DNA from: Torpedo marmorata
Lineage: Eukaryota
Reading direction: 5' to 3'
NCBI GenBank assembly: GCA_977017645.1
Contig: OZ360222.1
Location: 120,652,001-120,716,000, forward strand
Length of the DNA stretch: 64,000 nt
Both the position numbers and the translations under genes were made by a program. Below are positions 3,001 to 62,724 of this stretch, piece by piece. A model generated the notes under the pieces. The model was not told the origin of the DNA, ran no database searches, and saw only the letters and a program-made list of their open reading frames with translations. How positions within the stretch are numbered: the stretch's first letter is position 1; each line of letters begins with the position of its first letter.

Positions 3001-3605
3001 TGTAAATCCTTTTCCATAAATTCAATCTCCTTCTCTAATTTTTCTTCTTCTTTCAAATAATCTTTTTATCTTTGCTGAAAAGCTTATTATTAAACCTCTT
3101 AGATAAGCTTTCAGAGCCTCCCATACCATAAATTTATCATCTACCGAATTGTTATTTACTCTTAAAAATTCCTGAATTTCTCGTCTCATATATTCACAAA
3201 AATCCTTTCTTTTCAATAAAAAAGAATCAAATCTCCAGTTATATATAGTTTTTTCTTTCTCTGGGATTATACATGTCATTAATAAAGGTGAATGATCTGA
3301 AATTATTCTTGCTTTATAAGATATTTCTGTTATTCTTTCTTGAAGTTGTGAAGATAATAGAAATAAATCTATCCTAGAAAAAGAATTATGTCTAAATGAA
3401 TAAAATGAATAATCTTTCTCTCTTGGTTTCAATTTTCTCCAAATATCCACCAAATTTAAATCCTCCATCAAATTAACTATCTTTTTAACTATTTTTGGTC
3501 TAACAGATGTTTTAGAAGTTTTATCCATTATTGGATTTAAACAACAATTAAAATCTCCGCCAACTAAAATATTCTCTTTAGCATCTGATAGATGTAAAAA
3601 AACAT
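1..3605 (-). mobile_element. L1-clade LINE, 5'-truncated: ORF2 (partial APE endonuclease, RT, Cys-rich C-terminus) and 3'UTR
   Basis: GGDFN/SRID/SDH, YRPISLLN, RQGCPLSP, FADD and CFRC..HCTWSC motifs across frameshifted ORFs 196-3627; G-rich 3'UTR. Confidence 0.93.
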
Positions 3606-4070
3606 ATTTTAGAATCATCTTGATCAAACTGAGATTTATATAGATTCAAATAATAATCTTTAAAAGAATCATTTATTTCTCGAGGTTTATAGGTTATTTC
3701 TTTAGAATTCTTTTTCCTTATAGCATTTATAGTTCTAGAAGTTTGTTCTTTTTTTAATTGCCATGCCAAAACTTTATGAGCTCTTTCCCCTAATTCATAA
3801 TATCTTTGTTTAGTTCTTTCAATTAGTTTTTCCATTCTATATGTTTGTAATAAATTATAATGTAATTTCTTCCCAATTAAACGATTCCTTTTTTGAATTG
3901 ATCTATTTTTTTGTAAATCTTTTTCCAAACATTCGATCTCCTTCTCTAATTGTTCTACTTCCCTAAGATAATCTTTCTTAATTTTTGCTGAATAGCTTAT
4001 TATTTGACCTCTTAAATAAGCTTTTAATGCTTCCCAAATAATAAATTTATTATCAGTGGAATTAAAATTT
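3606..4070 (-). mobile_element. Second L1 ORF2 fragment (post-endonuclease linker) fused upstream of the first
   Basis: WEALKAYLRG...YELGERAHKVLAWQLKK repeats the region at 2700-3160 as a diverged copy. Confidence 0.85.
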
Positions 4071-4166
4071 AGGTGAAGTTGTTCTTGATTAATAGCTGTA
4101 GCTTCCTTATCTACTGTTTACAAAAACATATTCTGGGCTTCCTGCCAATTCTGCCAACATTCCTTT

Positions 4167-10206: not shown

Positions 10207-12169
10207 CCGTATATTTCAGCGTATAAGTCGACCCTTGAAACCCTCAAAAAACGGGGGTCGACTTATACGCCGGATATACTTTTGAGACCTTAAATTCAGC
10301 TCAAAATCGAGTTCACGCCGATCCGGCGTATAAGTCGACCCCTGAAAACACGATTCGGCATATAAGTCGACCCCTGAAACACGATTCGGCGTATAAGTCG
10401 ACCCCTGAAAAACCAAAAAAAAACCGACTGCAACAAATTTTCATTGAAAACAACAAGACATTTAGAACCCTTCAAAATCACTTTCGCTATCATCATCTGA
10501 GGCAAAGATCTCGGCAAGCACATCCGGGGTCTCACTGTTAAAACAGTCATCGTACGGGTCCCAGTCTGTATCTGATGAGGCGTCTTCAGCTTCGTCGTCA
10601 GTGTCCCACAATAAATCATCTTCTGTACCATCAATTGCACTAGAGATACCGCACTTTTTAAATGATTTTATTATAGTCTTTACTTTCACTTTGTCCCATG
10701 CCTTGAGCACGAAGTCACACAGCACATCAAGCGATGCAGCACGCATTGCCCCGCCTTTTGTAAATGATTTTTCTGCACTCGCCATCCATGTATTCCACTC
10801 TTCACGCACGTGGTCTTTGAATGGCTTGTTCAAGCAGATATCGAGAGGTTGCAATATAGACGTCAAACCACCCGGGATAACCGCCATGTAAGTATTATGT
10901 TGTGCTAATGTACTTTTAGTCTTCTCAGTTAAGTGGCTACGAAACATATCCCAGACCAGCAAACTCCGTTCCTTGCGTAAACCGCCTGGCCGCCTGTTCC
11001 ACACATTGTCTATCCATAGTATTACACCATTTTCATCCATCCATCCTTTTTCATGAAAATGTACAAAAATACCTGCTGGGAAATTTATTTTAGGTTTAAG
11101 TTTGCGCTTGAAGATTACCATGGGTCTTAACTTTGTCCCGTCGGCCATGCACGATAACACCACAGTAAACCTGGTCTTTTCATGTCCTGTACTCCTGGTT
11201 TGCACAGTTTTCACACCTTTCCATTCCACTGTTCTATTGCCTATCATGTCAAAATTCATGGGGGTTTCGTCCATGTTTCCAATATTTGCCAATGCAAACT
11301 TGTGTTTCTTCCGGTTACGTAAAATAAACTGGTGAAAACTTACAACTTTATGATCAAGATCTTTTGGTAGTTTCTGAGCAATTTTTGTTTTTTGTCATAA
11401 TACCAGATTTTTCCTGTTCATAAAACGGTTGCACCAGCCTACTGAAGCTTCAAAATCATTACTGAGTTCTGGGTGCGATTTTGCCCAGTTCAGTGCAAAT
11501 GTTCTTATTTTATTTCGGGTGACTATGTAGCAATCTTGCCTCTGTTCACGTACCCATGCTGCTACATGATTTTCCAACTCTGGCCAACGAGTGATTCCTC
11601 TTCTCATGGAACATTGCCTTTTTGGTATTTTTCTTAAAGTATCTTCTTTCTTCCTCCAATCTCTTACCAACTTCTCATATATATCAAATTTTCTTGCAGC
11701 AGCACAGTTGTTGGTTTTCTTGGCCATTTCTATTACTTTCAATTTAAAACTCGTCTCATACTTTCGTCGTTTCAATTGAGCCTTCAATGGAGCCTCCATG
11801 ATAACAATCACCTCCAGCCAACGCCCAGCAGCTCAATGATCGCGATCGTTGTGGGTCGACCTATACGCCGGTCAACGCCCAGCAGCTCAATGATCGCGAT
11901 CGTTGTGGGTCGATCTATACGCCAGTCAACGCCCAGCAGCTCAATGATCTCGATCGGTGTGGGTCGATCTATACGCCAGTCAACGGCCAGCAGCTCAATC
12001 ATCGCGTTTTTTGAGGGTCGACTTATACGCCGGTCAATGCGCAACATCTCAGGCATCGCGTTTTTTGGGGGTCGACTTATACGCCGGATATACCATAAAA
12101 CCATTAAAATTAGGCTGAAAAAGGGGGGTCGACTTATCTGCCGGTCGACTTATACGCCGAAATATACGG
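10207..12169 (-). mobile_element. Autonomous-type pogo DNA transposon (DD35D, Passer/POGK-like)
   Basis: About 24-bp TIRs, TA TSD, transposase on the - strand. Confidence 0.95.
10462..11811 (-). pseudogene. pogo transposase (Brinker-type DBD, CENP-B-type HTH, DDE_1) with one in-frame stop
   Basis: NMDETP, VWDMFRSH and LQPLD, with 35 residues between D2 and D3; ORFs 11395-11811 and 10462-11292 share a frame and are split by TGA at 11395-11397. Confidence 0.9.
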
Positions 12170-14756
12170 TATATAAGAAGAGAAATTCAAGAATTTTTAC
12201 AGATTAATTCTAATTCGATTGATAATAAATTTATTATTTGGGAAGCTTTAAAGGCTTATTTAAGAGGCCAAATAATAAGTTATTGAGCAAAAGTTAAGAA
12301 GGAATACGTTCGGGAAGTGGATAATTTGGAGAGGGAGATTGAATTCTTGGAGAAGGACTTGTTAAAAGAGATCAGAAGAAAAGAGGAAAAATTTACCGGT
12401 AATTGGAAAAAAATTGCATTATAATACATTACAAACATATAAAATGGAAAAATTAATTGAAAGAACTAAGCAAAGATATTATGAATTGGGAGAAAGAGCG
12501 CATAAACTGTTGGCGTGGCAATTAAAGAAAGAACAAACCTCTCGAACTATAAATGCTATAAAAAGAATTCCAAGAAAATAACATATAAACCTCGAGAAAT
12601 AAATGATTCCTTTAAGGAATTTTATTTGAATTTATATAAATCTCAAATTGATAAAGATGATTCTAAAATCAATGAATTCCTATCTAAAATTAAGTTACCT
12701 AGATTAAATACTCAAAGTAAAGAACTTTTAGATTTGTCTTTTTCGATGAGGGAAGTTAATGATGTTCTTAGTTCTCTAACAAGTGGAAAATCTCCAGGGG
12801 AGGATGGTTTCCCATCAGCATTTTATAAGGAGTTTAAAGATTTATTGATAACTCCATATATTAATGTGTTGAAACAAATAACGGAAACTCATTCGTTACC
12901 GGAAATATTTTCGAATGCAATAATTACAGTTATACCTAAAAAAGATAGAGATGTGTTGAAAACAGAATCATATAGACCAATTTCATTGCTAAATGTGGAT
13001 TATAAGATGATGGCAAATATTTTAGCAAATAGAGTGGCTAAATATTTACCAGATTTAATCCATGTAGATCAAGCTGGTTTTATTAAGAATAGATACTCAA
13101 AAGATAATATCGCTAGATTAATTAGTTTAATAAAAAAAAGAGGACCAAGCATTAGTATTAACATTAGATGCTGAAAAGACTTGACAGATTAGAGTGGAAT
13201 TATTTATTTAAGGTATTGGGGAAATTTGGTTTTGGAACTACATTTATTAATTGGATTAAAACTATATATAAAGAACCATCTGCTAGAGTGGTGACAAATG
13301 GACAAATTTCTTCAAAATTTTCTTTGACTAGGTCAATTAGACAAGGATGTCCTTTGTCGCCTGCATTGTTTATTTTAGCAATAGAACCTTTAGCAGAATT
13401 AATTAGACAAGATATTAGGATTGCAGGTATTAAAGTTGGAAGAGAAGAGCATAAAATTAGTTTATTTGCAGATGATGTATTGATTTATATGACAAAATAT
13501 TACTTTAATACAATTGAATGTTTTATTCAAAGAATATGGGGAAATATCTGGTTATAAGATTAATTCTGATAAAAGTGAAATTATGGCATTGACACAAGGG
13601 GATTATAGTAAATGTAAAGAAATTACACAATTTAAATGGTCAAATGAAGGATTTAAATATTTGTGAATAAAGATTGATATAAAATTAGCTAATTTATATA
13701 AATTAAATTATTTACCATTATTTATGAAAATTAAAAAAGATTTAGAAAGTTGGAAGGATTTATCTATAACTTTAATAGGAAGGGTAAACTGTATTAAAAT
13801 GAATCTCTTTCCAAGAATTCAATATCTTTTTCAATCAATTCCTTATGAAATTCCTCCGAAATTCTTTAAGGATTTAAATTTAATTATTAGCAAGTTTTTG
13901 TGAAAAGGAAAGTTGGCTAGCGTAGGTATGGAGAAATTAACTTGGAATTATGAAATGGGTGGTTTACAACTTCCTAATTTTCAAAATTATTATAAAGCAG
14001 CTCAATTAAAATTTGTTAATGAAATGTTTGATTTAGGAAAATCTTCTGCTTGGATTAGAATAGAACTAAATAATATAGGAGAAGATTTGAAAGAAGAAGT
14101 TATTTATAAATGGAATTCTAAATTATTATTAACAAGAGGGAAGAATTCTCCTATTTTTAAACATTTGTTAGAAATATGGAATAGAGTGGATAGGGAGATA
14201 GGAGGGAAAGGGTCAATTTCTCGAAAATGCCTTTATATCAAAATAAACTTATTCCATTTACTGTTGATAATCAATTATTTAAAATTTGGTTCCAAAAGGG
14301 AATTAAGAAAATAAATGATTGTTTTGAAGCTAGTAAATTTATTACTTTTGAAAGAATGAAAGAAAAGTTTAATGTATTAAACAATACACTTTTTGCTTAT
14401 TATCAAATCAGAGCATTTTTAGTTGAAAGGTTGGATTATAGTTTGACTTTACCAAGACAGAGTGAACTGGAATTATTAGTTACTAATGGAGGTGTAAATA
14501 AATTTATTTCTCAAATGTATAGATTGTTACAGATGAAAATGCCTAAATTAGGAATTCACAAATCAAGATTAAAATGGGAATCAGATTTGAATGTAACAAT
14601 AGATGAAGATCACTGGAAAGAATTATGTAAACTAAGTATGACGAAGATTATTAATGTTAGATATAGATTAGTGCAATATAATTTTTTTCATCAATTATAT
14701 TTAACGCCTAAAAAATTAAAGAAATTAAATTCGACATCAGGTTTATGTTTTAGATG

Positions 14757-15661
14757 TGTTATGGACCATGACTGACCATTTGGACTGCGGACAGTTAGCA
14801 GGAAGGATGAATTCTTTTGGAGTATACACTGGGGCCAGGTACTGAAAGAGTTAACTTCCCCAGCTACTTGGTGTACCCAGACAAGATACATTGTTGCACA
14901 CTTCTGGTGTACCCAGACAGAGAGAGACCAGAGAGAGAGACAGAGACAGGCTGAAGAAGATACATTTGTTTCACTTCTGCAAAAAGCAGGGGCAGATCTC
15001 TGCAAAGCAGACAGTTGTGAGTTGCAAGGCTACAGAACACAGCCAGATCCAGTTTTGTGTGCAAAAGTCAGAGAAAGACTGACAGAATAGCACATGGCCT
15101 CCTGTCTCAGAGAAAAATTCTGAGAAAAGCAACTTCTGTGGAGAACAGGCGTGAGATCAGCGAGACTAGCTGTGAGATTCAAGCATACGCCTAAATCAGT
15201 GGTATACTGATCTGGAACTTGCAATCCTTATGAACCCACAAGAAGGGGACGTCATCAGAGAAGAAAACAAGTATTTGTAAGCATAATCAGTCATTGTCTC
15301 TCTCCAACGTTCATTCAGAAGTACTTCTACCAGACCCAGAGCTGAAGTGAAGCCTGAACTTAGAGAGTGAATCTTGTGGACTGTTTATCTTTTTTTTGAC
15401 TGACTTGTTGTTTTATGACTGACCTGGGGTTTTTGGGGAAAGTTTTTCCATTTTTTTTCATAAGGGTTGGGCACAGACTGTAATGGTCTGGGCTTTACAC
15501 ACACACACATACACCTTTTAGATAAGAATAGAGTTTATAGACGTTTATAGTGGGGTTAATTGTTGTGAAATTATATGTTTACTTGTGTTTAATAAATAAT
15601 AATTTCAGTTTTACCCCTTTTGCATTGCGTCTTCTGTCGTTGCTGGTTTGATTCTGTAACA
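14757..15661 (+). mobile_element. Solo LTR (905 bp) inserted in L1 ORF2
   Basis: TGTTA...TAACA ends; 4-bp TSD GATG (14753-14756, 15662-15665); the L1 frame CFRC|NRE is restored on removal; a 36-bp piece of the same LTR lies at 4819-4854 (-). Confidence 0.88.
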
Positions 15662-19024: not shown

Positions 19025-19173
19025 GTGCTTCTACTGAACCGCCTGGGTCGAATATTCCAAACGTGTTTTCCTCCAGTGCTAGTACTAGAGGCAAATGAAG
19101 GAGAAGTCTCTTCTCTGAGACAGCTTTTGCAGTCTGGATTTGGGAAAAGAGAGCAGATCCAAGCAAACAGTGG
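19025..19173 (+). CDS. AFTPH: Aftiphilin coding exon (VLLLNRLGRIFQTCFPP...QANSG)
   Basis: AG at 19023-19024 and GTAAG at 19174; 149 nt, phase 0 to 2. Translation resembles vertebrate AFTPH 'LLNRLERIFEACFP' (recalled) and joins the next exon in frame. Upstream exons were not found in the window. Confidence 0.88.
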
Positions 19174-19493: not shown

Positions 19494-19620
19494 GGAGTTA
19501 TTGGCTGTGTGGACGGAGCTGCAGGACGTAGAAGATGCTCATGGCCTGAGGTACCAGTGGGGGGGCTCCCATAGCAACAAAAAGCTTCTGATTTCCCTGG
19601 GAATTGATACCCGAAACATA
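19494..19620 (+). CDS. AFTPH: Aftiphilin exon, conserved C-terminal region (ELLAVWTELQDVEDAHGLRYQWGGSHSNKKLLISLGIDTRNI)
   Basis: TAG acceptor and GTAAGT donor at 19621; 127 nt, phase 2 to 0; carries the AFTPH motif YQWGGSHSNKKLL. Confidence 0.95.
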
Positions 19621-20220: not shown

Positions 20221-20277
20221 CTGTTTACTGGGCAAAGGAAACAGCCTGTTATAGTTCCTGCTTATGCATCTGGACTG
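20221..20277 (+). CDS. AFTPH: Aftiphilin exon (LFTGQRKQPVIVPAYASGL)
   Basis: Polypyrimidine tract plus AAG acceptor, GTAAGT donor, 57 nt, phase 0/0; resembles AFTPH LFTGNKKQPVIVPMYAAGL (recalled). Confidence 0.93.
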
Positions 20278-21736: not shown

Positions 21737-21868
21737 GGCATGTTAGAACCCACCAAAGAACCAGTCAAACCAATATCAGCTGCAGAGAAAATAGCTTCAA
21801 TAGGTCAGACACCAACTGCAAGTGTTTCGGCATCTGAGATGAGCTCTTCTGCATGTGATCAAACTCAG
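21737..21868 (+). CDS. AFTPH: Aftiphilin exon (GMLEPTKEPVKPISAAEKIASIGQ...CDQTQ)
   Basis: TTTTAG acceptor, GTAATG donor, 132 nt, phase 0/0. Confidence 0.95.
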
Positions 21869-27680: not shown

Positions 27681-30600
27681 GTTGGAGTGGGAGGAGCGAC
27701 TGGTGACTAGTGCTTGGTGAGTAAGTATTTTGTGGAGTTGTAAAATTGTTTAAAAAGGGAGCTTTTTCGGGCCTAGGTCTTTTCAGTTGCGTTGGAGTGG
27801 GAGGAGCGACTGGTGACTAGTGCTTGGTGAGTAAGTATTTTTTGGAGTTGTAAAATTGTTTAAAAAGGGAGCTTTTTCGGGCCTAGGGCTAGGTTAAGTG
27901 GTGATTAGTAGTCGTAAGAAATTTTGTATTAGAGTTAATTAGCAGTGACCTATAAAAGGAAGGGAAGTTGAGGGAGCGGCCAGTGAGTGAGTGGCATAGG
28001 GAAGGAGTGGAGCTCTGAGGCTTTGGCTCAAGAGGCTTCGGAGAGAAGAGGCTGAGGAAGGTTTGCTGGACGAGATTGGAGCTCCCGGTTGGTATGTTGC
28101 CTTCCAGGTGCCAGGGCCAGGGATGTCTCTGATCGAGTACTCAGCATTCTGGAGGGGGAGGGCGAGCAGCCAGGTGTCGTGGTCCACGTGGGGACCAATG
28201 ACATAGAAAGAAATGGGGATGAGGTCCTGAAGAAGGAATATAAGGAGTTAGGAAGGAAGTTAAAAAGCAGGACCTCGAGGGTGGTAATCTCAGGATTGCT
28301 GCCTGTGCCACGCGCTAGAGAGGGTAGGAATAGGAAGATGTGGAGGATGAATGCGTGGCTAAAGAATTGGTGCTGGGGGCAGGGGTTCACATTTGTGGAT
28401 CATTAGGATCTCTTCTGGGGAAGGTCTGACCTGTACAAAAGGGACAGGCTGCACTTGAACTGGAGGGGGACCAATATCCTGGCAGGCAGCTTTGCATGAG
28501 CTGTTGGGGAGGGTTTAAACTAGTTTGGCAGGGGGTGGGAATCAGAATGTAAATGCGGAGAGTAGGGTAGAAGAACACCTAGATTTGAAGGAAGAGAGGA
28601 ACCAGAATGTTAAAGTTAATGAAGGAGAGGGTAATCAAAGGAGTGTATGTGGGGGGGGGGACATTCTCTCAAGTGTATATATTTCAATGCAAGAAGCAAT
28701 GTAAGAAAGGTGGATGAGCTGAGAATATGGATTGATACATGGAAATATGATATTGTAGCCATCAGTGAAACTTGGTTGCAGGAGGGGCATGATTGGCAGC
28801 TAAATATTCCTGGATTCCGTTGTTTTAGGCGTGATAGAACAGGGGGGATAAAAGGTGGAGGGGTCGCAGTGCTTGTTAGAGAAAGCATTACAGCGGTGCT
28901 ATGGCAGGATAGATTGGAGGGCTCGTCCAGTGAGGCTATTTGGGTGGAATTGAGGAATGGGAAAGGCATAAAAACACTAATGGAGTGTATTATAGACCAC
29001 CGAATGGGCAGAGGGAATTAGAGGAGGAAATTTGTAAGGAGATAGAATATATGTGTAATAAGCATAAGGTGGTGATTATAGGTGATTTTAACTTTCCACA
29101 TATTGACTGGGACGCCCATACTGTAATAGGGCAGGATGGGTTGGAGTTTGTCAAATGTGTTCAGGAAAGTTTTCTCAATCAATACATAAAAGAACCGACG
29201 AGAGAGGGGGCAGTATTGGATCTCCTATTTGGGAACGAGATAGGTCAGGTGACAGAGGTTTGTGTTGGGGAACACTTTGGGTCCAGTGATCATAATACCA
29301 TTAGTTTTAGGTTGATAATGGAGAAGGATAGGGCTGGGCCTAAGGTTGAGATTCTTGATTGGAATAAGGCAAATTTTGAGGAGATGAGGAAGGATTTAGA
29401 GGGTGTGGATGGGATAATTTATTTTTAGGAAAGGATGTCACAGATAAATGGAGGATATTCAAAGGGGAAATTTTGAGAGTACAGAGTCAGTTCCTGAGGA
29501 TTAAAGGAAGAGTTAGAAAATATAGGGAGCCTTGGTTTTCAAAGGATATTGGGAATTTAGTTCGGAGGAAGAGGGATGTGTACAACAGGTATAGACAGCA
29601 GGGAATAAATGAGGTTCTTGAGGAATATAAGGAGTGTAAAAAAAATCTTAAGAAAGAAATTAGAAAGGCTAAAAGGAGATATGAGGCTGCTTTGGCAGGC
29701 AAGGTAAAAATAAATCCAAAGGGTTTCTACAGGTACATTAAAAGCAAAAGTATAGTGAGGGATAAAATTGGGCCCATTGAGGATCAGACGAGTAGGCTAT
29801 GTGAGAAGTCAGAGGAGATGGGAGAGATTTTAAATGAATTTTTTTCTTCAGTATTTACAAAGGAAAGGAATATTGAGCCAGGTGAAGTAAGGCAATCTGG
29901 CAGGGAGGTCATGGATAATATAAAGATTAATGAGGAGGTAGTATTGGTTATTTTAAAGAGTATAAAGGTGGCTAAATCTCCAGGTCCTGACAGGATATTC
30001 CTGAGGGAGGTTAGTGTACAAATAGTGGGGGCTCTGACAGAAATATTTAAAATGTCACTGGCCACGGGAGGTGCCGGAGGATTGGAGGGTAGCTTATGTT
30101 GTCCCGCTGTTTAAGAAGGGCTCCAAAAGTAAACCTGGAAATTATAGGCCTGTGAGTCTGACATCGGTGGTGGGTAAATTAATGGAGAGTGTTCTTAGAG
30201 ATGGTGTATACAGTTATTTGGAAAGACAAGCATTGATTAGGAGTAGTCAACACGGTTTTGTTCGTGGTAGATCATGTTTGACAAATCTCATAGAGTTTTT
30301 CGATGAGGTTACTAAGAGGGTTGTCGAGGGGAAGGCTGTGGATGTTGTCTATATGGACTTTAATAAGGCATTTGACAAGGTTCCGCATAAGAGGCTCGTT
30401 AGGAAGGTTCAAGCATTAGGTATTAACGACGAAGTAGTGAAATGGATTCAACAATGGTTGGATAGGAGATGCCAGAGAGTAGTGGTGGAAAATTGTTTGT
30501 CAAATTGGAGGCCGGTGACTAGTGGAGTGCCTCAGGGATCGGTACTGGGTCCATTGTTGTTTGTCATATATATTAATGATCTAGATGATAGGGTGGTAAA

Positions 30601-31534
30601 TTGGATTAGTAAGTATGCAGATGATACGAAGATTGGTGGTGTTGTGGACAGTGAAGAAGGATATCAAAGCTTGCAGGGGGATATTGGACAGTTAGAAGAG
30701 TGGGCGGAAACATGGCAGATGGAATTTAATAGTGATAAATGTGAGGTGCTACATTTTGGTAGGATTAATCAGCAAAGGTCATACATGTTAAATGGAAGAC
30801 AATTGAGAAGTGCAGTAGAACAGAGGGATTTAGGAATTCTGGTACATAATTCCCTGAAAGTTGAGGCACACGCAGATAGGGTGGTGAAGAAGGCATTTGG
30901 TATGTTGGCCTTCATAAATCAGAGTATTGAATATAGGAGTTGGGATGTCATGTTGAAGTTGTATAAGGCATTGGTGAGGCCAAATTTAGAATATTGTGTG
31001 CAGTTTTGGTCGCCGAATTACAGGAAGGATATAAACAGAAATAGAGAGAGTGCAGAGGAGATTTACAAGAATGTTGCCTGGGTTTCTGGGTTTGAGTTAT
31101 AAGGAAAGGTTGAACAGGCTGGGACTTTATTCCCTGGAGCGTAGAAGGTTGAGGGGTGATTTGATAGAGGTATTTAAAATTATGAAGGGGAAAGATAGTC
31201 AATGTGGACAGGCTTTTTCCATTGAGAGAGGAGAAGATTCAAACAAGAGGGCATGGATTGAGATTGAAGGGGGAAAAGTTTAGAGGAAACATGAGGGGGA
31301 ATTTCTTCACTCAGAGGGTGGTAGGAGGGTGGAACGAGCTTCCGGCAGAAGTGGTAGATGCAGGTTCAGTTTTAATGTTTAAGGAAAAGTTGGATAGGTA
31401 TATGGATGAGAGAGGTGTGAAGGGTTATGGGCCGTGTGCGGGTCAGTGGGACTAGGTGGGAGAATGTGTTCGGCATGGACTCGAAGGGCCAAACTGGCCT
31501 GTTTCTGGGCTGTAAATGTTATATGGTTATATGG
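27681..31534 (+). mobile_element. Near full-length CR1 LINE (5'UTR, SGNH-esterase part of ORF1, ORF2 APE-RT)
   Basis: HVGTND and LHLN esterase motifs at 28089-28470; APE motifs SETWL, GDFN, SDHN; RT motifs PQGSVLGP, YADD; (TTATATGG)-like tail; 110-bp 5' duplication. Confidence 0.93.
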
Positions 31535-37547: not shown

Positions 37548-37608
37548 GATCACGTCCCGCCTGTCCAGTTTGACTGGAGTAGCAGTGGCCTTACTAATCC
37601 TCTTGATG
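37548..37608 (+). CDS. AFTPH: Aftiphilin exon (DHVPPVQFDWSSSGLTNPLD)
   Basis: Pyrimidine tract plus TAG acceptor, GTACGT donor, 61 nt, phase 0 to 1; matches AFTPH PPVQFDWSSSGLTNPLD. Confidence 0.93.
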
Positions 37609-38734: not shown

Positions 38735-39823
38735 TATTGATGTATTGTTTCTAATTATTGGCCATTTGAAATTTAAGTGCTTTAACCAATTCCTTTGCAC
38801 AAAGCCAGTACATGTTTTGAGATACATGTAGAAAAGCTCATTAAAACATTGACAAGTATAATGAAAAATTTCTAGCATTATGTTTGCGTTTTAAAAATAT
38901 GCATTTAAGTGTAGAAAATATGGTATTGTCTTTGAATTTGGCACGTCACAATTTTTATCTATTTACCCTATTTTATGACCTATATTTCCTTTTAATTGAG
39001 CAGCTATCAGCACAGATTTGCTTACTGTAACAATAAAATAAGATTACTAATTTGCTGAAATATTGCTGTTGAATGTTTGTTAATGCTCAATGTATTTATC
39101 TAGCACATTTACACTTTTGTGCTTACTTTATCACTGTTATAACATGTACAAAAAAAACACGTGCTTGGCTTTAGATGAGAAATTCATTGGAAATTGGCAT
39201 TGCTGTGTTTTCAATGGGTCTCCAGTCCTTTGAATAACAAAAAATTTCGTATGTTGTCTGCAGTCATCAACATGACCACAAACATTTTCTGTTTATGTAA
39301 ATAAAATCTCAATTTAGTATGTAACTTGCAGGGTTAAAATAGAATGATTTTGCATCTTTCTGTAGTACTCCAAAGATTAATATGTATTGATCAAAGGTCT
39401 ACCAGCAAATTCCTAGTCTAAACCTAGAAAGTCTGGATGAGCTCTCCATTGTTTTGATGTCCATTAACTACTCCAGTCAAATCTACCTGTTTAGTTTACT
39501 ATCAGTTTTTTCTGCTTGAAAATTGTTCATTGGCAACTTTAAATGTAAAGCAGAAAACAATTTTATTCCATTCCATGGAATTTCTTATGGTTTTGGTTGT
39601 TTCATCAGTGTTTTTTTTTATCTGCTTCATTAGTTTTAATTGTAAAGCTTGTTTTGTTAATTTTAATTAGAAATTGCATTATTAATCTTCTAAGTATTTT
39701 GGATGTCTAATTTTGTTGTATATAGTTATAACCTGCATGTTGGTTTGTTTTGTTATCTATTTTGCACATCATCCTCACGCTGACTTATCCTCTCATTTCT
39801 ACCTATGGTTATTGAATCTCATT

Positions 39824-39906
39824 CTAATGGAGGATAAACTCTTCTGAGCCTTGATTTCTTGGGCTAATGGATGGCACAAGCACTGCCAACAGCAAAACAA
39901 TCTCAG
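39824..39906 (+). pseudogene. AFTPH: Decayed AFTPH cassette exon (ANGG*TLLSLDF-GLMDGTSTANSKTIS)
   Basis: 83 nt at the expected position in the exon order; TAA at 39835-39837, an apparent 1-nt deletion near 39860, no AG acceptor (CATT), GT donor kept at 39907. Confidence 0.8.
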
Positions 39907-41018
39907 GTCAACAGAATGTATTAACTGCAGTCTGTCATGCTTGTAATATTGCACTCGCATGACTGTCCCAGATGTGAAAAGCCATATCATGAGTTGGCAC
40001 TGAACCAGCTTTAGCAAATGGTACTTTAACGTGCTCATTTTTAAATTTTTTGCAATTTTTTTGAATCATTTTGTCCAGAAGATGCTTTGTTCCCAAGCTG
40101 TGCTCCTACATTCGCATGTCGCAGAGGTCTAGTTACTGTGAAAACTTGTCATGGAGGTTTAATGAAATTGGACAAATTTTACTTTCAAATCCATGGTTGG
40201 TTACATATTTGGCTTAGCGTCATTGCTCAACATTTGTTGTCTGGGTTGAATTGTTGTAGTACTTGCATATTGTTAGACAGGAAATTCCAGGATGCTGGTA
40301 AATTGTTTGAAGTACTGGGGATATCCATACAAGTCATGATAATATGTGGCCTGCTTGTGATGTGCCATTGCTGCTTGTCTTCGGTGGTAGTTGCTAAGTG
40401 AATTGCTGTTGAATAAACATTGAATAGGAGTGCATCGTCAAAGTAGCACATATGACACCAATAGTGTGCCACTGGTGAAGTAAGGTGAATATGAAGTCCG
40501 AAGGAAGGATTGCAGATCATTTAAACAGCTTTGTGCTGGATAATGAAGTTCTTGAGCGTTAAGCTTGTCTGAGAGTCTGAAGTTTTCTGTGGGCATTTGA
40601 GTTCTTTGATTTTTTCTTGGTGTGTTTCTGTTGTGGCTGTTGTTTTGGTACTAGGTGATGGAAATAAGTCCAGCAGTTGTTGGTACCTGTCATAGCATGG
40701 TTGATGAAAGCATCCTTATGATTTCAATAGGTGTTCGTGCCTGGACCAAGAGTCTTGCCATGAAGTCATGCACTTGTCTCTCTGATGAAACAGGTTGTTG
40801 GATATGACTTGGTTGTGATCCAAAGATTTGCTCAGGAGGAGAACTCCTTTTGAGTTCGCTTTCCCAACTAATTGTCCCTTTCCCAAGGTTTGCATCCTTT
40901 CACTCTTGGCAATGAAGTCACCTGGGAGCATTTAAGAACATTGAACAGTACAGCACAAGAACAGACCATTCGGCCAACCAACTCTGCACCGAACAAGAAG
41001 CCAAATTAAATGAAAAGG

Positions 41019-44455: not shown

Positions 44456-46601
44456 TTTTTTAAATATTTTATTTAAAATTTTAAATCACAAAATACATAA
44501 AGCGTAATATAAAATTATCAAAATACATGTGATACATTTTCTCCCCCCCAACCACCCTCCCCACCCTAACCCTCCCACCCCTACTAATCTATAAAATAAA
44601 AGAAAGAAAAAGATAGAATAAGGAGAATGTCAATCTACAACAAAGAACAACTATAAACTAAATCTATTATGGAAAATAGGTTCACCAGTCTGATCTGATC
44701 TCTGGAGATCTTCAAATTCTTAGACCAACCGTTTTTATGTATGGGCTCCAAGTTTTCAAAAAGAAATGATATTTATTACGTATATTATAAGTAATTTTTT
44801 CAAGTGGTATACATGAACGAAGTTCTGCATGCCACCTTTCTAAACCTAAATCTACATCAGATTTCCAAGTAATAGCAATGCATTTCTTAGCAACAGCTAG
44901 AGCAATTCTCAAAAACTCTATTTGATACATATTTAATTTCGTCATAATACTAATTCTTTTAATATCTCCGAATAAAAAATCATAGGATCCATTGGGAGTG
45001 TAATTCTTAATACTTTGTCCAAAAATTCCTTAACTTTCAACCAGAAATCTTTGGACAAAACCATGTAGAATGTACAAAAGAACCTTCCTCTCTATTACAT
45101 CTGAAACATAAATCTGATAATGTCGGATTAAATTTCTTTAATCTTTTAGGTGTTAAATATAATTGATGGAAAAAAATTTACTGCACCAATCTATATCTAA
45201 CATTAATGATCTTAGTCATACTTAGTTTACATAATTCTTTCCAGTGTTTTTCCTCTATAGTTACATTCAAATTTGATTCCCATTTTAATCTTGATTTATG
45301 GATAGCTACTTTAGGCATTTTCCTCTGTAATAATTTATACATTTGAGAAATAAATTTATTTACACCTCCATTTGTAACTAATAATTCAAATTCACTTTGT
45401 CGAGGTAAAGTCAAATTATGGCCCAATCTTTCAACTAAAAATGCTTTAATTTGGAAATAGGCAAAATACGTATTATTTAATATATTAAATTTATCTTTCA
45501 TTCTTTGAAAAGTAAAAATTTTCCAGCTTCAAAACAGTCATCTATTTTCTTAATTCCCTTTTGAAACCAAATTTTAAATAATTGATTATCAAAAGCAAAT
45601 GAAATAAGTCTATTTTGATATAAAGGCATTCTTGACGAAATTAAACCTTTCGTCCCTATCTCTTTATCGACTCTATTCCATATTTCTAACAGATGTTTAA
45701 AGATAGGAGAATTTTTACCTCTTGATAATATTAATTTAGAATTCCACTTATAAATAACTTCTTCTTTCAAATCTTCTCCTATATTATTTAATTCTATTCG
45801 AATCCAAGCAGAAGATTTTACTGAGTCAAACATTTCATTAATAAATCTTAATTGAGCTGCGTTATAATAATTTTGAAAATTAGGAAGCTGTAAACCACCC
45901 AATTCATAATTCCAAGTTAATTTCTCCATAGCTATTCTAGCCAATTTACCTTTCCACAAAAACTTCCTAATAATTGAATTTAAATCTTTAAAAAGTTTCT
46001 GAGGAATTTCATAAGGAATTGATTGAAAAAGATATTGAATTCTTGGAAAGACATTCATTTTAATACAATTTACCCTTCCTATTAAAGTTATAGGTAAATC
46101 TTTCCAACTTTCTAAATCTTTTTTAATTTTCACAAATAATGGTAAATAGTTTAATTTATATACGGTAAATTAACTAATTTAGTATCTATCTTTATACCTA
46201 AATATTTAATTCCTTCTTTTGACCATTTAAATTGTGTAGTTTCCTTACATTTACTATAATCCCCTTGTGTTAATGCCATAATTTCACTTTTATCAGAATT
46301 AATTTTATAACCAGATATCTCCCCATATTCTTTCAATAAAACATCCAATTGTATTAAAGAAGTAATAGGTTTTGTCATATAAATCAATACATCATCTGCA
46401 AATAAACTAATCTTATGCTCTTCCCTTCCAACTTTAATACCCACAGTCTTGATATCTTGTCTAATTAATTCTGCCAAAGGTTCAATTGCTAAAACAAATA
46501 ATGCAGGTGACAACGGACATCCTTGCCGTGTCGACCTAGTCAGCAAAAACTTTGAAGAAATTTGTCCATTTGTAACCACCCTAGCAGAAGGTTCCTTATA
46601 T
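44456..46601 (-). mobile_element. 5'-truncated L1 (RT 3' half, C-terminus, 3'UTR)
   Basis: 15-bp TSD CTAAATATGATTCTT at 44441-44455 and 46602-46616; RQGCPLSP and FADD motifs. Confidence 0.94.
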
Positions 46602-47387
46602 CTAAATATGATTCTTAACTGTGGGATTTTCAACTGCTGGGGAATGTATTTGAGAGAATTTAGTTTGTGTATGTAATTGTGGTGAGTTACCATGTTTTTC
46701 ACACTGAAACAAAGCATGGTCCTAACATTGCATCATTGCCACAAAATATTTCATTTTGTAGGAAATAACCCAGGGACTTTAAGGTTATAAGCTCATCATG
46801 ATGCATTGTGCAAAGGAATGACGTTTAGAAGCTGATGGTTTTTTAAGTTGCAGAATTTATTTTTTTTAAAAAAAGCTTTGGCTTTGTTACAGCTCCAGTT
46901 AGTGATTGTAATATTCTATAAACGTGTGTGCATGAAAACAAGCATTGAAATGAAGAGTATTTGGGTGCTTCAAAGTAATGGGTCATGATATCAGTGCAGA
47001 AGTATTTGTAACCTTTTTATAAAAACAAATATCCACTAGTAGCCTTATTCTTTGACCGCCTTTGGAAATAAAACTTGATATAACTGCTTAATAAAAGTAG
47101 CAGAATCATAGAGTTCGGAAACTGGCCCAACTTGTCTTTGCCCTCTTGCTTTAGTCCCACTTGCCCACATCCCTTCACTGCCCTTCCATCCATGTAGTTA
47201 TCCAAAGTTTTTTTTAAAAATGAAGCTAATGTACCTGCCTCTGCTACTTTGGCAGCTCATTTAATATGCCCACCACTGTCTGAGTGAAGAACTGTCCCCT
47301 CATGCCCCTTCTTAATCCTAACCCCCTCACTTTGTAGTTACCCCCTCATCTTAGATTCTCCCACTCTAGGAAACAGGCTGTCACTAT

Positions 47388-50300
47388 TGTTGTATATGTC
47401 ACGTATGACGTGATGACGTCATACGCACTATATAAAGCGTAGCGCTGGATACCATTTTAGTTTAGTAATAAAGTTTGAATGAAGAAGCACGTCTCGGTGT
47501 GTTATTGTATGTTTTACACCCGAAATATACAACAGATTGGTGACGAGGATAAAAACGAACTTCCCTAACAAGGAAAGGGAGGGGAAGAAAGAAGACCTAC
47601 CACAACAGTGAGCTCCACAGGCTCACTCACAGAGAACAAAGGAAAAACACAGTGGAAGACTCAAAATGGCGGACAGCCGTTTCGGAGAGTACAAAGACTC
47701 AGAAGACTGGTATGACTACGTTGAAAGATTCAATATGTACTATATTGCCCACAATGTAGTTGATACACCAGTAACAAGGAGAAAACAAGCTTTGTTCCTA
47801 AGTGAAGTGGGAAGTAAAATTTTTAAACTTATGAAGTCTCTTTTGGCACCTGAAAGACCAAGTACTAAGACTTATGATGAACTATGCACAGTAATAGGAG
47901 AACACCTGTGTCCCAGACCTGTAATTATTGCAGAACATTATAAGTTTTACTCTAGGAAACAAAGAATAGGCGAGCCAATAAGCGAATATTTGGCTGAATT
48001 ACGCAGGTTATCAGAACGTTGTGACTTCGGTGAATTCTTAAATGATGCATTAAGAGACAGATTGGTCATGGGTTTAGCTGACCGTCACACCCAACAACGA
48101 TTGCTGAGTAAACCAGATTTAAATATTGGGACTGCTTATGCTACAGCATTGAGTTTCGAAATGGCTGGGAAAAATATTGATATTATACAAGGAGAAACCT
48201 CGACAGTAGGGTATGTTACCAAACCTGGCAGACAACAGTGCTTCCGCTGCGGAAAGAGCAACCACAGCCCTGACAACTGTTACTTTAAAAAGGCCAAATG
48301 CCATTATTGTGACAAAGAAGGACATATTAAATCCAGATGTCCAAGCAGAAAATTACTATACCAGAAAAGTAACAAGCAGAAGTCAAAAGTTAACAGACAA
48401 TCATCCAAAGTAAAAAAAGTTAAAGAAAAAGATGCAGCGGAAACCCCTAGTAGTGAGTCGACTAATGACTCGGATGAGGAAAAAACAGGAGATAGAACAC
48501 AAGCAGTGGATGTAATGCATGTCCACAGTGTGGGGGACAAGAAGTCGGAAATTTATGTAGATGTTAAAATCAATGGCAAACCCATTCGAATGGAATTAGA
48601 CACCGGAGCCTCCGTAACTCTAATGCCGAAAAACATATTGTTTGAATTTTGGCCCAACATTACCATAAAACCATCCGACATCCTATTAAGAACAGTCACA
48701 GGGGAAAAAATCACAGTGATTGGTAAATGCAAAGTGGAAGTCGAATATAAGGGTAAGATCTCAAAAGACTTACCCATGATCATTATTGATGCAAAGGGAA
48801 AAGCCTTATTCGGAAGGAACTGGCTATCACATATTCCGTTGGATTGGATGGAAATTGGATCAGTACTAAAGGTTCAGGCTGAAAATGAACCAAAGTTGGC
48901 ACAAGTACTGAATAAGTATCAGACATTATTTAAGAAAGGTCTGGGGAAAATCAAAGGAGTCGAGGCACAATTAAAATTGAAACCGGAAGCGGAACCAAAG
49001 TTCTATAAGCCAAGGACAGTGCCTTTGCGATAAAAGGAAAAATTGATGTGGAACTCAGCAGATTAGAAAACGAAGGAATCATTGAAAAGCTGCAATATAG
49101 TGATTGGGCAGCACCCATTGTGCCGGTTCGGAAACCGAACGGAGAAATTCGAATTTGTGGAGATTATAAAGTCACCATCAATCAGGCTCTGCAAATACCA
49201 CAACACCCAATGCCCAGAGCCGAAGATTTATTCCAATCCCTAAATGGTGGGGAAAAGTTCACCAAGCTGGATCTCTCTCAAGCGTATCAACAAGTTAAAT
49301 TAGATGAAACATCTAAGAAATATGTGGCAATTAATACTCATCGGGGATTATTCACATATACAAGAATGCCGTATGGAATATCAGCAGCACCAGCGATATT
49401 TCAATCAATTATGGACAAATTACTACATGGAATAGATGTAGGGTGCTACCTAGATGATATCATTATCACAGGACGAGACGATGCAGAACATTTATCAAAC
49501 CTGGAAAAAGTCTTAACACGACTACAACAAGCGGACGTCCGTCTGCGTCAAGACAAATGTGTATTTATGGTGCCCTCAGTAACGTATTTAGGATTTACAA
49601 TTAACAAGGAAGGCGTACAAATGAATGCAGCAGGTACCGAAGCCGTCCGAAAAGCGCCTTGTCCAACCAGCAGATCGGAGTTACAATCGTTTTTGGGGTT
49701 AGTCAACCATTACCGAAAACACATTCCAGACATGTCCACCTTGTGCAACCCATTGAACCAGTTACGAAGAAAAGACCAAAAATGGTACTGGAGTACGAAA
49801 GCAAATGATGCCTTTAACCGGTTAAAAAAGCTATTAACTACGAGCAATAATATACTCGTCCACTACGATCCTAACAAAGAGGTAACTTTGGCGGTAGATG
49901 CCTCACCGGTGGGTCTAGGAGCAGTACTGTCACAAATCACCGAAAAAGGAGAACAACCAGTAGCGTATGCATCTCGGTCCTTGACGGCTTGTGAACGCAA
50001 TTATGCACAATTAGAAAAAGAAGGACTGGCCATAATATTTGGAATCAAAAGATTCCACCAGTATTTATATGGAAGAAAATTCACATTAGTAACGGACAAC
50101 AAACCATTGAGCTTGATTTTGGGACCTAAAAAAGGCATTCCAGTATTGGCGGCAACAAGAATCCAGAGATGGGCAATAATGCTCGCCGCTTACGATTGAG
50201 TTGAAACATAAACCAGCGACACAAAACGAACATGCCGATGCTTTATCACGTTTACCCCTGCCAGAAACGGGTCAAACCGAAGAGATAGTTCAATGGACAG

Positions 50301-52020
50301 CAGAGGCCACAGCTGTTAACCAAGAACAGCTTCGCCATCTGCCCATTACAGCCAAAATAATCAGTAAAGAAGTAAGAAATGAACCCACACTGGCCAAGGT
50401 TTTGTATTTTACATTAAATGGATGGCCAGAAGGGGACACCATTTCTTCAGACCTTAAACCTTACTATATCCGACGGAATGAAATAACTATTGAAGAAGGT
50501 TGCTTATTGTGGGGTGCCCGGACAAATATCCCAAGGAAATGGCTAAAGGACATATTGGCAGAACTTCATGATAACCATCCTGGGATAGTCCGCATGAAAG
50601 CGCTAGCACGAATGCATGTTTTGTGGCTATCAATGGATATGGATATCGAGCAAACTGTACGAAGGTGTGGCATTTGTCAAGATATGCAACCGAAAGCTCC
50701 CCAGGCCGAAGCAAATCCATGGAAATGGCCGTCTCGACCATGGCACAGAATCCATGTAGATTTTGCAGGTCCATTTATCGACGCACACGCCAAATGGCCA
50801 GTGGTATCACACATGCGTACCACAACAACCATCCAAACAATTGAAAGATTAAGAACTATGTTTGCATCATATGGATTGCCAGTGGAATTGGTCTCAGACA
50901 ATGGTCCTCAGTTTACTTCAGATGTTTTTAGAATGTTCCTGCGTAACAATGGTATACGCCATGTACTTTCCGCACCGTACCACCCAAGTACTAATGGAGA
51001 AGCGGAGCGTTTTGTGCGAACATTTAAAAATGCTATGAAAGCAGGCAAATCGCTTAACTTTTCATGGAATCATAGAATAGCAAATTTCCTTGCAGGATAC
51101 AGAAATACACCTCATTCAACAACTAAAAGAACACCAGCAGAATTAATGTTTGGACGGAATATTCGAACGCGGCTATCAGCAGTGCACCCGGATATCAGCG
51201 GTCGTATTGAACACGACACCTCACCAACTAAACCAACCAGATCTCTGGAAGTGGGTGAAAGAGTGTTGGTAAGAGATTACAGGAATAATAAAGAAACATG
51301 GATAAGAGGTGTTATCATTAAGAAGTTAAGCCCTTGCTCATATGCCATACAAGTAGAGACTAACATATGGAAATGACATATTGACCAACTGAGAGCAGTA
51401 GAAGATCCAATAATGACAGATGAGCCGAAGGATTTGCCATCTTGGGTCAATGACGATGATGCTGATCTAGAGACAGACTCCAGGTATCAACAATACTCAT
51501 CGAGATTCCAGTTTCCAGTTTGAAGAAGATATTACGGCAGAAAAGACAAAAAGTCCAAGTCCAGAGAAGACAAAAAGTCCAGAAAAGACAGAGTCCCATG
51601 GTTCCGACAGTTGTAGGGGATCCACCCCTAAGAAGATCACACCGTCAACGACGTCCGCCGGAACATTTGAGAGACTATGTACCCTAAATAATTTTTCACT
51701 ATTGTGATTATCAGTATTATACTAACAGTTAGTATTGGTAGTTTTACTTGTATGATTTTTTTTAGTTGTAGTTGTAGTTTCCCCGCTATATTTCAGTAGT
51801 TACGGTAGTTTACAAGTGATCGGGGAATATGTAATCGTATAATAATAATCTATATTATGTGGGGGGGGAAGAGTGTTGTATATGTCACGTATGACGTGAT
51901 GACGTCATACGCACTATATAAAGCGTAGCGCTGGATACCATTTTAGTTTAGTAATAAAGTTTGAATGAAGAAGCACGTCTCGGTGTGTTATTGTATGTTT
52001 TACACCCGAAATATACAACA
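47388..52020 (+). mobile_element. Full-length Ty3/Gypsy LTR retrotransposon, Mag-like (gag-PR-RT-RH-IN)
   Basis: Identical 147-bp LTRs (47388-47534, 51874-52020) with 10-bp terminal inverted repeats; 5-bp TSD ACTAT; PBS 47538-47550; PPT 51861-51873; inserted in a CR1 3' end (-). Confidence 0.97.
47666..51376 (+). pseudogene. Gypsy gag-pol, disrupted
   Basis: Two CCHC knuckles, LDTGA protease, YLDD RT, DAS/EKE RNase H, HHCC and D,D,E integrase; frameshifts at about 49024 and 50197; stop at 51374. Confidence 0.93.
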
Positions 52021-58542: not shown

Positions 58543-58666
58543 GTGTTGATCCAGAATTGTATGAGTTGACTACATCCAAACTGGAAGGCTCAAGTACTGT
58601 CAATCAAATGACCGATGCATTTGCTCGACTCATGTCTACAGCAGAGAAGATGAGCACATCTAGCAG
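58543..58666 (+). CDS. AFTPH: Aftiphilin exon (GVDPELYELTTSKLEG...DAFARLMSTAEKMSTSSR)
   Basis: TTTTAG acceptor, GTAAG donor, 124 nt, phase 1 to 2. Confidence 0.95.
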
Positions 58667-60125: not shown

Positions 60126-61425
60126 AGGGATTGGAATAATTCCTCCGCTCTTGGCATGGGATGTTCCGATACTTGCAGAGCCTGATTAACAGTGCCTTTA
60201 TAATCTCCGCAAATTCGGATTTCTCCATTCGGTTTTCGGACTGGCACAATGGGAGCTGCCCAGTCACTATATTGAAGCTTTACAATGATTCCCTCGTTTT
60301 CTAATCTGTTGAGTTCCGCCTCAATTTTTCATTTTATTGAAAAAGGCACTGTCCTTGGCTTATAGAACTTTGGTTCAGCTTCAGGTTTCAATTGTAATTT
60401 TGCTTCGGCTCCTTTGATTCTCCCCAGGCTTTTCCCAAATAAGGTTTGATACTTCTTCAGCACTTGTGTCAGTTTTGGTTCATTTTCCGTCTGAATCTTC
60501 AGTACTGACCCGATTTCCATCCAATCCAATTGGATGTGTCATAGCCAGTTCCTTCCGAACAAGGCTTTTCCCATTGCGTCAATAATGACGATGGGTAAGT
60601 CTTTTGAGATCTTACCCTTATATTCGACCTTAACTTTGCATTTACCAATCACTTTTACTTTTTCCCCTGTGACTGTTCTTCATTGTAATCGTTGTTGGGT
60701 GTTGCGGTCAGCCAAACCCATGACCAATTGGTCTCTTAACGCATCATTTAAGAATTCTCCGAACTCACAACGTTCTGATAGCCTGCGCAATTCAGCTAAA
60801 TATTCGCTTATTGGCTCTGGCTCGCCTGTCATTTGCTTTCTGGAATAAAACTTATAACGTTCTGCAATAATTACTGGTCTGGGGAATAGGTGTTCTCCTA
60901 TTACCGTGCATAGTTCATCATAAGTCTTAGCACTTGGTCTTTCAGGTGTCAAAAGGGACTTCATAAGTTTAAAAGTTTTGCTTCCCACTTCACTTAGAAA
61001 CAGAACTTGTTTCCTCTTGGTTACTGGTGTATCAGTCACATTGTGGGCAATACAGTACATATTGAATCTTTCAATGTAGTCATACCAGTCTTCTGAGTCT
61101 TTGTACTCTCCGAAACGGCTGTCCGCCATTTTGCATTTTTTCCCACGTTTTCCCTTCTTTCTTCTTTGTGAGTGAGCCTGTGGAGCTCACTGATGTGGTA
61201 GGTTTTCGTTCTTCTTTTCTTCTCCCTTTCCTTGTTAGGGAAGTTCGTTTTGATCCTCGTCGCCAATCTGTAGTGTATTCTAGGTTTAGATATACACAAG
61301 CACACGGAGACGTGGTGCTTCATTCATCCTTTATTATTAATCTAACAATGGTTTCCCGCGCCACGCTTTATATAGTGCGTGATGACGTCATACGCGGCGT
61401 ACCAAGACTGCGTGTATCCACAACA
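60126..61425 (-). mobile_element. 3'-truncated Mag-like Gypsy, a sister family of 47388-52020
   Basis: 157-bp LTR 61269-61425; PBS TGGCGACGAGGAT 61253-61265; gag MADSRFGEYKDSEDW; gag-PR deletion at about 60680; ends early in RT. Confidence 0.92.
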
Positions 61426-62579: not shown

Positions 62580-62724
62580 GAAACCAAAAAAGGAGGAAAT
62601 TCTTAGTAATGAAGCTGCCCAGGTGATTGCAAGCCTTCCAGATCTGTCATTCATGCATGCCAAGGTGCTGATGTTTCCAACCACATTAACACCTTTGGTA
62701 AGCTCTCATGAAAAGGCAGACTGA
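62580..62724 (+). CDS. AFTPH: Aftiphilin last coding exon (KPKKEEILSNEAAQVIASLPDLSFMHAKVLMFPTTLTPLVSSHEKAD*)
   Basis: TTTGTAG acceptor; C-terminal motif LPDL(S/T)FMHAKVLMFP; TGA stop at 62722-62724. Confidence 0.96.

What the first reader, a model, noticed from the sequence alone, without database searches (positions are those of the whole stretch)
39824..39906. Fossil AFTPH cassette exon: apparent loss of the clathrin-box exon
Seen: between the NPLD exon (phase 1) and the GVDPE exon lies an 83-nt segment that reads, in phase 1, A-N-G-G-*-T-L-L-S-L-D-F-[1-nt gap]-G-L-M-D-G-T-S-T-A-N-S-K-T-I-S and ends at AG|GT. Recalled: human AFTPH has an alternatively spliced 28-aa (84-nt) exon at this point, ASGGSTLLNLDFFGPVDDSSSSSSTTIP, whose LLNLD fits a type I clathrin box. 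This copy has three lesions: TAA, a frameshift and no AG acceptor. The flanking exons still splice in frame without it. Inference: the exon predates the shark/bony-vertebrate split, and this lineage lost the clathrin-box isoform while keeping the gene.
Basis: partly seen in the sequence, partly recalled or inferred. Interest (0 to 1): 0.85.

Follow-up and report, generated by a model that had tools for sequence, protein, structure and literature searches.

The report
Dead aftiphilin exon in electric ray
An electric ray carries the decayed remains of an optional aftiphilin exon that chimaera, some sharks and bony vertebrates keep intact, so it can make only the short form of this vesicle-trafficking protein from this gene; this is a real new example of a known process, exon loss.

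Summary
Bases 39824-39906 are the orthologue of the 28-residue AFTPH cassette exon. A frameshift-aware scan scores them 69, against 25 for the next site and at most 35.5 in 100 shuffles; the window has no intact copy. The window is an electric ray, sister to Narcine, not a shark. Intact exons occur in chimaera, 3 of 9 shark rows and many bony vertebrates, but in 0 of 8 ray and skate rows. The weak-looking donor is ancestral and intact. The acceptor AG has become TT, and there is a stop, a 1-nt gap and nine further residue changes, which indicates old decay. Flanking exons join in frame. Two corrections follow. All 4 intact cartilaginous-fish exons read V/I-LNLD and miss the strict clathrin-box consensus, so 'loss of a clathrin box' is borrowed from bony vertebrates. 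The separate Pfam clathrin-binding domain is intact. How widely the exon is lost is open: six shark rows also lack it, and no relative's DNA could be fetched. Verdict: a genuine, apparently unreported case of ordinary cassette-exon loss.

The parts
39824..39906 (+). Decayed AFTPH cassette exon (83 nt; the intact form is 28 codons): TAA at 39835-39837, 1-nt gap in the T run near 39859-39860, nine further residue changes against sawshark
   Evidence: 17 of 28 residues identical to Pristiophorus P0121; intact cartilaginous-fish exons are 21-27 of 28 identical to each other
39820..39823 (+). Destroyed acceptor: CATT where relatives must have CAAG
   Evidence: Bird (P0028, P0078, P0080) and Xenopus (P0087) records that read in from the intron end in Gln-Ala at this junction, which with a phase-1 exon start requires CAAG; the window reads His-Ser. 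Inferred from protein, not from DNA
39726..39821 (+). Relic of the 3' splice region: 96 AG-free bases, weakly homologous to the bird intron and about 7 nt shorter
   Evidence: 0.5% of intron positions have so long an AG-free run upstream; best local match, but 7 of 20,871 intron positions match as well; span 80 vs 87 nt
39907..39962 (+). Ancestral donor GTCAAC and conserved downstream intron; GCATG at 39957 (RBFOX-type motif, recalled)
   Evidence: The sawshark read-through isoform P0121 needs only 8 base changes over 57 nt to match, none in the first 8 codons, and has its stop at the same place; best of 20,877 intron positions. The pocket mouse record P0124 reads through the same donor
37548..37608 (+). 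Live upstream exon, 61 nt, phase 0 to 1
58543..58666 (+). Live downstream exon, 124 nt, starts in phase 1
19494..19620 (+). Live exon carrying Pfam Clathrin_bdg (PF15045), including the YQW tripeptide
   Evidence: E=2.6e-16
19025..19173 (+). Live AFTPH exon (first in the window; the rest of the gene was not found in the window)
20221..20277 (+). Live AFTPH exon, 57 nt
21737..21868 (+). Live AFTPH exon, 132 nt
62580..62724 (+). Last coding exon, to the stop codon

Best explanation
This is a pseudo-exon: an ancient, frame-preserving cassette exon of aftiphilin that an ancestor of this electric ray stopped using. Shown: orthology, the lesions, and the intact skipping frame. Inferred: because the skip form was already a normal product, losing the 3' splice site (AG to TT, perhaps with a small deletion in the branch region) cost only the long isoform. 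The exon became intron and then decayed, gaining a stop, a 1-nt gap and residue changes at positions that are invariant or nearly so elsewhere. The spliceosome should now join 37608 to 58543 constitutively. Any rare use of a nearby AG gives a premature stop and probably decay of the message. The order of the lesions is not known. The motif had probably already drifted from the strict clathrin box (V for L) in cartilaginous fishes, which may have made the loss cheap. The loss is old, and may well be shared by other rays and skates.
For: The site is unique and far above chance. Orthology is confirmed independently by the downstream intron. There are at least 10 residue-changing base differences from sawshark in 61 such sites, 0.16 per site (Poisson 0.08-0.30), against 0.07-0.09 for the live exons versus sharks and chimaera. 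Fisher P for dead versus live exons is 0.0005-0.02; chimaera and sawshark, split about 421 Ma (PMC3692497), still share 26 of 28 residues. All 10 AGs between 39600 and 39906 give a premature stop when spliced in. Skip forms are common in species or groups that also have the exon (55 of 208 rows). 0 of 8 ray/skate rows carry the exon. The Narcine record has no isoform number, which suggests a single annotated protein (naming convention recalled).
Against: No reads, no RNA-seq and no DNA of any relative could be examined. The 1-nt gap lies in a T run, where sequencing errors are common (error bias recalled). The first 24 bases after the donor show no detectable change (chance about 0.05 at the exon's rate). 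The 96-nt AG-free zone survives (chance about 0.19). Both mildly suggest remaining constraint. Only 8 of the 40 sequences in the ray/skate clusters were seen, because cluster members could not be listed. Six of 9 shark rows also lack the exon, so absence from annotation does not prove genomic loss.
Confidence: 0.85

Rival explanations
1. Assembly artefact: the exon is intact in the animal and the lesions are sequencing errors.
For: The 1-nt gap falls in a T run.
Against: The stop, the two acceptor changes and nine residue changes are all substitutions within about 90 nt. The 792 coding bases of the seven live exons have no stop or frameshift and are 252 of 263 residues identical to Narcine.
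Confidence: 0.03
2. Recycled as a poison exon: the intact donor pairs with a cryptic acceptor (nearest AG at 39831-39832) to make a stop-containing transcript that tunes AFTPH level.
For: The donor and the next 24 nt show no detectable change against sawshark, and a GCATG lies at 39957. Splicing at 39833 gives an immediate stop.
Against: The internal AGs have 8-11 pyrimidines in the preceding 20 nt, against 12-17 for the seven real acceptors. The whole 57-nt flank has diverged as much as the exon (0.18 vs 0.16).
Confidence: 0.07
3. Division of labour: a second AFTPH-like locus in this genome keeps the exon, so the long isoform is not lost from the animal.
For: Most named cartilaginous-fish records are called 'aftiphilin-like', and gar and sturgeon records are called 'aftiphilin a', which leaves room for a paralogue.
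Against: The tree of the C-terminal part follows the expected groups (chimaera, sharks, rays), as for one orthologue. No ray-like exon-bearing protein appeared among the best 120 of 334 near-length hits or the 18 short hits. Lower-ranked hits were not seen.
Confidence: 0.07
4. The exon is dead, but what was lost was not a working clathrin box, because the motif in cartilaginous fishes no longer binds clathrin well. This is compatible with the best explanation and changes only its meaning.
For: LLNLD occurs in 147 of 153 exon-bearing rows; the 6 exceptions are all 4 cartilaginous fishes and 2 Xenopus rows. The consensus needs L first (PMC5182127).
Against: The same paper reports that binding to the clathrin terminal domain is degenerate. 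The rest of the motif (LNLD, then FFGP) is invariant across all intact exons.
Confidence: 0.35

Closest known systems
AFTPH cassette exon of bony vertebrates (mouse 'exon 8', in-frame, regulated; PMC4601534 passages, PMC12705855 passages)
   Same: Same position, phase, donor and sequence family. That the mouse exon 8 of the paper is this exon is my inference: the paper gives 81 nt, while 150 of 151 protein rows give 28 residues.
   Different: Here the acceptor is gone and the frame is broken.
[quoted passage not shown]
   Same: An optional, frame-preserving exon lost while the gene stays.
   Different: The exon is far older (shared across jawed vertebrates, about 450 My per PMC10787021 introduction) and otherwise strongly conserved; the remnant and its flanks are still legible.
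Clathrin-box motif LΦxΦ[DE], e.g. LLNLD of the AP2 beta2 hinge (PMC5182127 passages)
   Same: Bony-vertebrate exons carry the identical pentapeptide.
   Different: Cartilaginous-fish exons start with V or I; the dead copy is not translated.

Membership tests
AFTPH (aftiphilin) gene | PF15045 Clathrin_bdg domain and homology to named aftiphilins | tested here: met
   E=2.6e-16
Orthologue of the AFTPH 28-aa cassette exon | Significant, unique, positionally correct match | tested here: met
   (69 vs shuffle maximum 35.5); lies between the two expected exons
Orthologue of the AFTPH 28-aa cassette exon | Homologous flanking intron | tested here: met
   downstream best of 20,877 positions; upstream only weak (7 of 20,871 as good)
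Pseudo-exon (lost cassette exon) | Splice site or frame destroyed while skipping keeps the frame | tested here: met
Pseudo-exon (lost cassette exon) | Faster divergence than live exons | tested here: met
   (protein-level proxy; no orthologous DNA)
Pseudo-exon (lost cassette exon) | No inclusion in transcripts | not testable with these tools
   No RNA-seq; only indirect (0 of 8 ray/skate protein rows include it)
Type I clathrin box in the cartilaginous-fish exon | LΦxΦ[DE] consensus | tested here: not met
   0 of 4 intact cartilaginous-fish exons match (consensus; regular expression recalled)
Type I clathrin box in the cartilaginous-fish exon | Binds clathrin terminal domain | not testable with these tools
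   Bench assay; no held paper testing this aftiphilin motif was found
Poison exon | Usable acceptor and regulated inclusion | tested here: inconclusive
   Cryptic AGs are weak and all give stops; inclusion not measurable

The most novel reading that the evidence does not exclude
The exon is dead in all rays and skates and independently dead or silent in several galeomorph sharks. This would be repeated loss of an otherwise 450-My-conserved isoform after its clathrin box weakened (L to V/I) in cartilaginous fishes. Electric rays, whose electric organ is a classic model of synaptic vesicle cycling (recalled), would then be a natural knockout of the long aftiphilin isoform. Hints: 0 of 8 batoid rows and 0 of 6 other shark rows include it, and the one galeomorph exon seen (Stegostoma) is the most diverged intact copy (21-22 of 28 identical).
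Probability: 0.25. Interest if true: 0.55.

Novelty: new member of a known kind. Interest (0 to 1): 0.38.

Why it matters
The exon's N-terminal half is almost invariant from chimaera to mammals, and its function as an isoform switch is uncharacterised (PMC4601534 says the effects on the protein are unknown). A vertebrate lineage that lives without it shows that the long isoform is dispensable in at least one setting and offers a comparative handle. The process itself is well known, and no phenotype is linked, so the importance is moderate. I found no paper on it: 'aftiphilin'+'shark' gave 0 papers. 'AFTPH'+'alternative splicing'+'exon' gave 13, none on fishes by their listings. The library lacks most subscription papers.

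Tried and rejected
Intact copy elsewhere in the window: none; the best ungapped score on either strand is this same site, and 39500-40300 has no other meaningful match in the window. Rescue by another acceptor: 10 of 10 nearby AGs give stops. Broken donor: rejected, GTCAAC is ancestral. Structured RNA: no Rfam match in 37000-64000. The ESM Atlas search gave only sub-0.9 leads to Clathrin_bdg clusters. The first tree used a boundary wrong by one base for the first exon and was redone. Dating: no neutral rate was found in the passages read, so no age in years is given. Cluster members could not be listed, so hidden isoforms of ray and shark clusters stay unseen. The genome collections on offer hold no vertebrates, so no orthologous DNA was compared. 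Hirst et al. 2005 was not held, and Burman et al. 2005 was seen only as a citation, so the experimental basis for calling this aftiphilin motif clathrin-binding is recalled, not read. The 50%-representative protein search, structure prediction and complex prediction were not run.

Full report
Locus. The window holds the 3' part of AFTPH on the + strand as seven live exons (19025-19173, 19494-19620, 20221-20277, 21737-21868, 37548-37608, 58543-58666, 62580-62724). All have AG acceptors, the six internal ones have GT donors, and they join into a 264-residue open frame. The second exon matches Pfam Clathrin_bdg (E=2.6e-16). The best hit of the downstream exon is Narcine bancroftii (98%). Over all live exons the window is 252 of 263 residues identical to Narcine and groups with it at 97/98 support, inside a ray-and-skate clade at 100/97 (21 rows). 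The animal is therefore an electric ray related to Narcine, and not a shark.

Observation. The 83-nt segment, its translation, TAA, 1-nt gap, missing AG and AG|GT end are as described. I scanned both strands of the window with 28-column profiles that allow one frameshift. The cartilaginous-fish profile scored this site 69.0, the next site 25.0, and 100 shuffled windows at most 35.5. Bony-vertebrate and human-only profiles gave 52.6 and 61, against shuffle maxima of 34.2 and 40. No intact copy exists in the window. Plain tblastn with full-length proteins is much weaker (human reference E=3.4, chimaera 0.016, sawshark 2e-7).

The exon elsewhere. Three protein searches listed 120 of 509, 120 of 334 and 18 of 18 hits, giving 214 stored proteins. 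I used 208 and dropped six unnamed ones. Of the 208, 153 carry the exon and 55 skip it; it is 28 residues long in 150 of the 151 rows where both ends are spliced. Among 18 cartilaginous-fish rows it is present in chimaera (1 of 1) and in Heptranchias, Pristiophorus and Stegostoma (3 of 9 shark rows). It is absent from all 8 ray and skate rows, three of which are unnamed records that the tree places with the skate Rhinoraja. So the exon predates the split of cartilaginous and bony fishes. These rows are cluster representatives: I saw 8 of 40 sequences in the batoid clusters, and six shark rows also skip, so annotation absence cannot be read as genomic loss.

Anatomy of the decay. Against sawshark the segment keeps 17 of 28 residues. 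It needs at least 10 single-base changes (one making the stop) plus the gap, whereas intact cartilaginous-fish exons share 21-27 of 28. That is 0.16 changes per residue-changing site against 0.07-0.09 for live exons compared with sharks and chimaera; Fisher P is 0.0005-0.02. Several changes hit columns that are invariant or nearly so among intact exons. Records that read into the introns give a protein-level view of the flanks. The sawshark read-through isoform matches 39906-39962 with 8 minimal changes in 57 nt, the best of 20,877 intron positions, with the stop in the same place. A pocket mouse record reads through the same donor. The odd donor GTCAAC is therefore ancestral and intact. Bird and Xenopus read-ins imply an acceptor CAAG where the window has CATT. 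The window's upstream stretch is about 7 nt shorter than the bird one; the missing codons could hold a branch-point-like ACTAAY, which is a guess from translation only. A 96-nt AG-free zone remains.

How it works now. Shown: direct joining of 37608 to 58543 keeps the frame, and all 10 AGs between 39600 and 39906 give a premature stop if used with the old donor. By my arithmetic these stops lie more than 55 nt before the last junction, so decay of such messages is expected (rule recalled). Inferred: the exon is constitutively skipped and evolving without coding constraint. The order of the lesions cannot be read from one sequence. The amount of change in a slowly evolving group (PMC3692497, passages) says the loss is old, but I have no rate with which to date it within the 306 My since sharks and rays split.

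What was lost. LLNLD occurs in 147 of 153 exon-bearing rows and is the same pentapeptide as the AP2 beta2 clathrin box (PMC5182127, passages). But all four intact cartilaginous-fish exons, and two Xenopus rows, begin with V or I and miss the LΦxΦ[DE] consensus. The dead copy's first L is most simply a later change from V (inference). None of the 15 cartilaginous-fish proteins scanned has a consensus box anywhere, while all keep YQW and 2-5 gamma-ear motifs (gamma-ear consensus from PMC7714068, passages). Binding to clathrin is known to be degenerate, so the V form may still bind. 'Loss of the clathrin-box isoform' is thus plausible but unproven for this group. In mouse an in-frame Aftph exon is regulated in motor neurons (PMC4601534 and PMC12705855, passages); that it is this exon is my inference (81 nt is quoted there).

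Rivals. An assembly error could explain only the gap. A poison-exon role has two weak hints (unchanged first 24 nt after the donor, P about 0.05; AG-free zone, P about 0.19) but lacks a good acceptor. A paralogue keeping the exon was not seen but was not excluded.

Novelty and verdict. Loss of alternative exons in single lineages is established (PMC2231371, passages). I found no report for AFTPH in fishes (search listings only). PMC12952301 and PMC10787021 were seen as passages; the first added nothing and the second gave only the 450 My split. No supplements were read. The finding is real and well supported: a new instance of a known kind, notable for the age and conservation of the exon. Interest 0.38; higher if loss proves batoid-wide or repeated.

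Noticed in passing
window 47612-51376 +: LTR-retrotransposon-like pol in three overlapping ORFs (protease, RT, RNase H, integrase order, as in Ty3/Gypsy; class name recalled) inside the intron downstream of the dead exon; a related gag-like piece lies at 60680-61186 on the minus strand.
   Followed up: partly
window 10462-11832 -: Pogo/Tigger-like DNA transposase (BrkDBD, HTH_Tnp_Tc5, DDE_1) split into two adjacent ORFs.
   Followed up: partly
window 196-4117 -, 12506-14775 +, 28635-31102 +, 45498-46732 -: Several fragmented LINE copies of at least two kinds; RT or endonuclease domains confirmed for 1052-2782, 28934-29428 and 30038-31102.
   Followed up: partly
P0121, P0124; window 39907-39962: Sawshark and pocket mouse records show isoforms that run through the cassette donor and stop within about 18 codons; a possible conserved alternative last exon, or just retained-intron annotation.
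   Followed up: partly
window 62698: GTAAGC inside the last coding exon, at the point where the Heptranchias record P0007 switches to a shorter C-terminus; a possible alternative donor.
   Followed up: no
P0040: The Stegostoma exon is the most diverged intact copy (21-22 of 28 identical to the other three), hinting at relaxed constraint in galeomorph sharks.
   Followed up: no
window 39734, 39957, 40114: Three GCATG motifs within 600 nt around the dead exon, against 0.69 expected from the intron's density.
   Followed up: no
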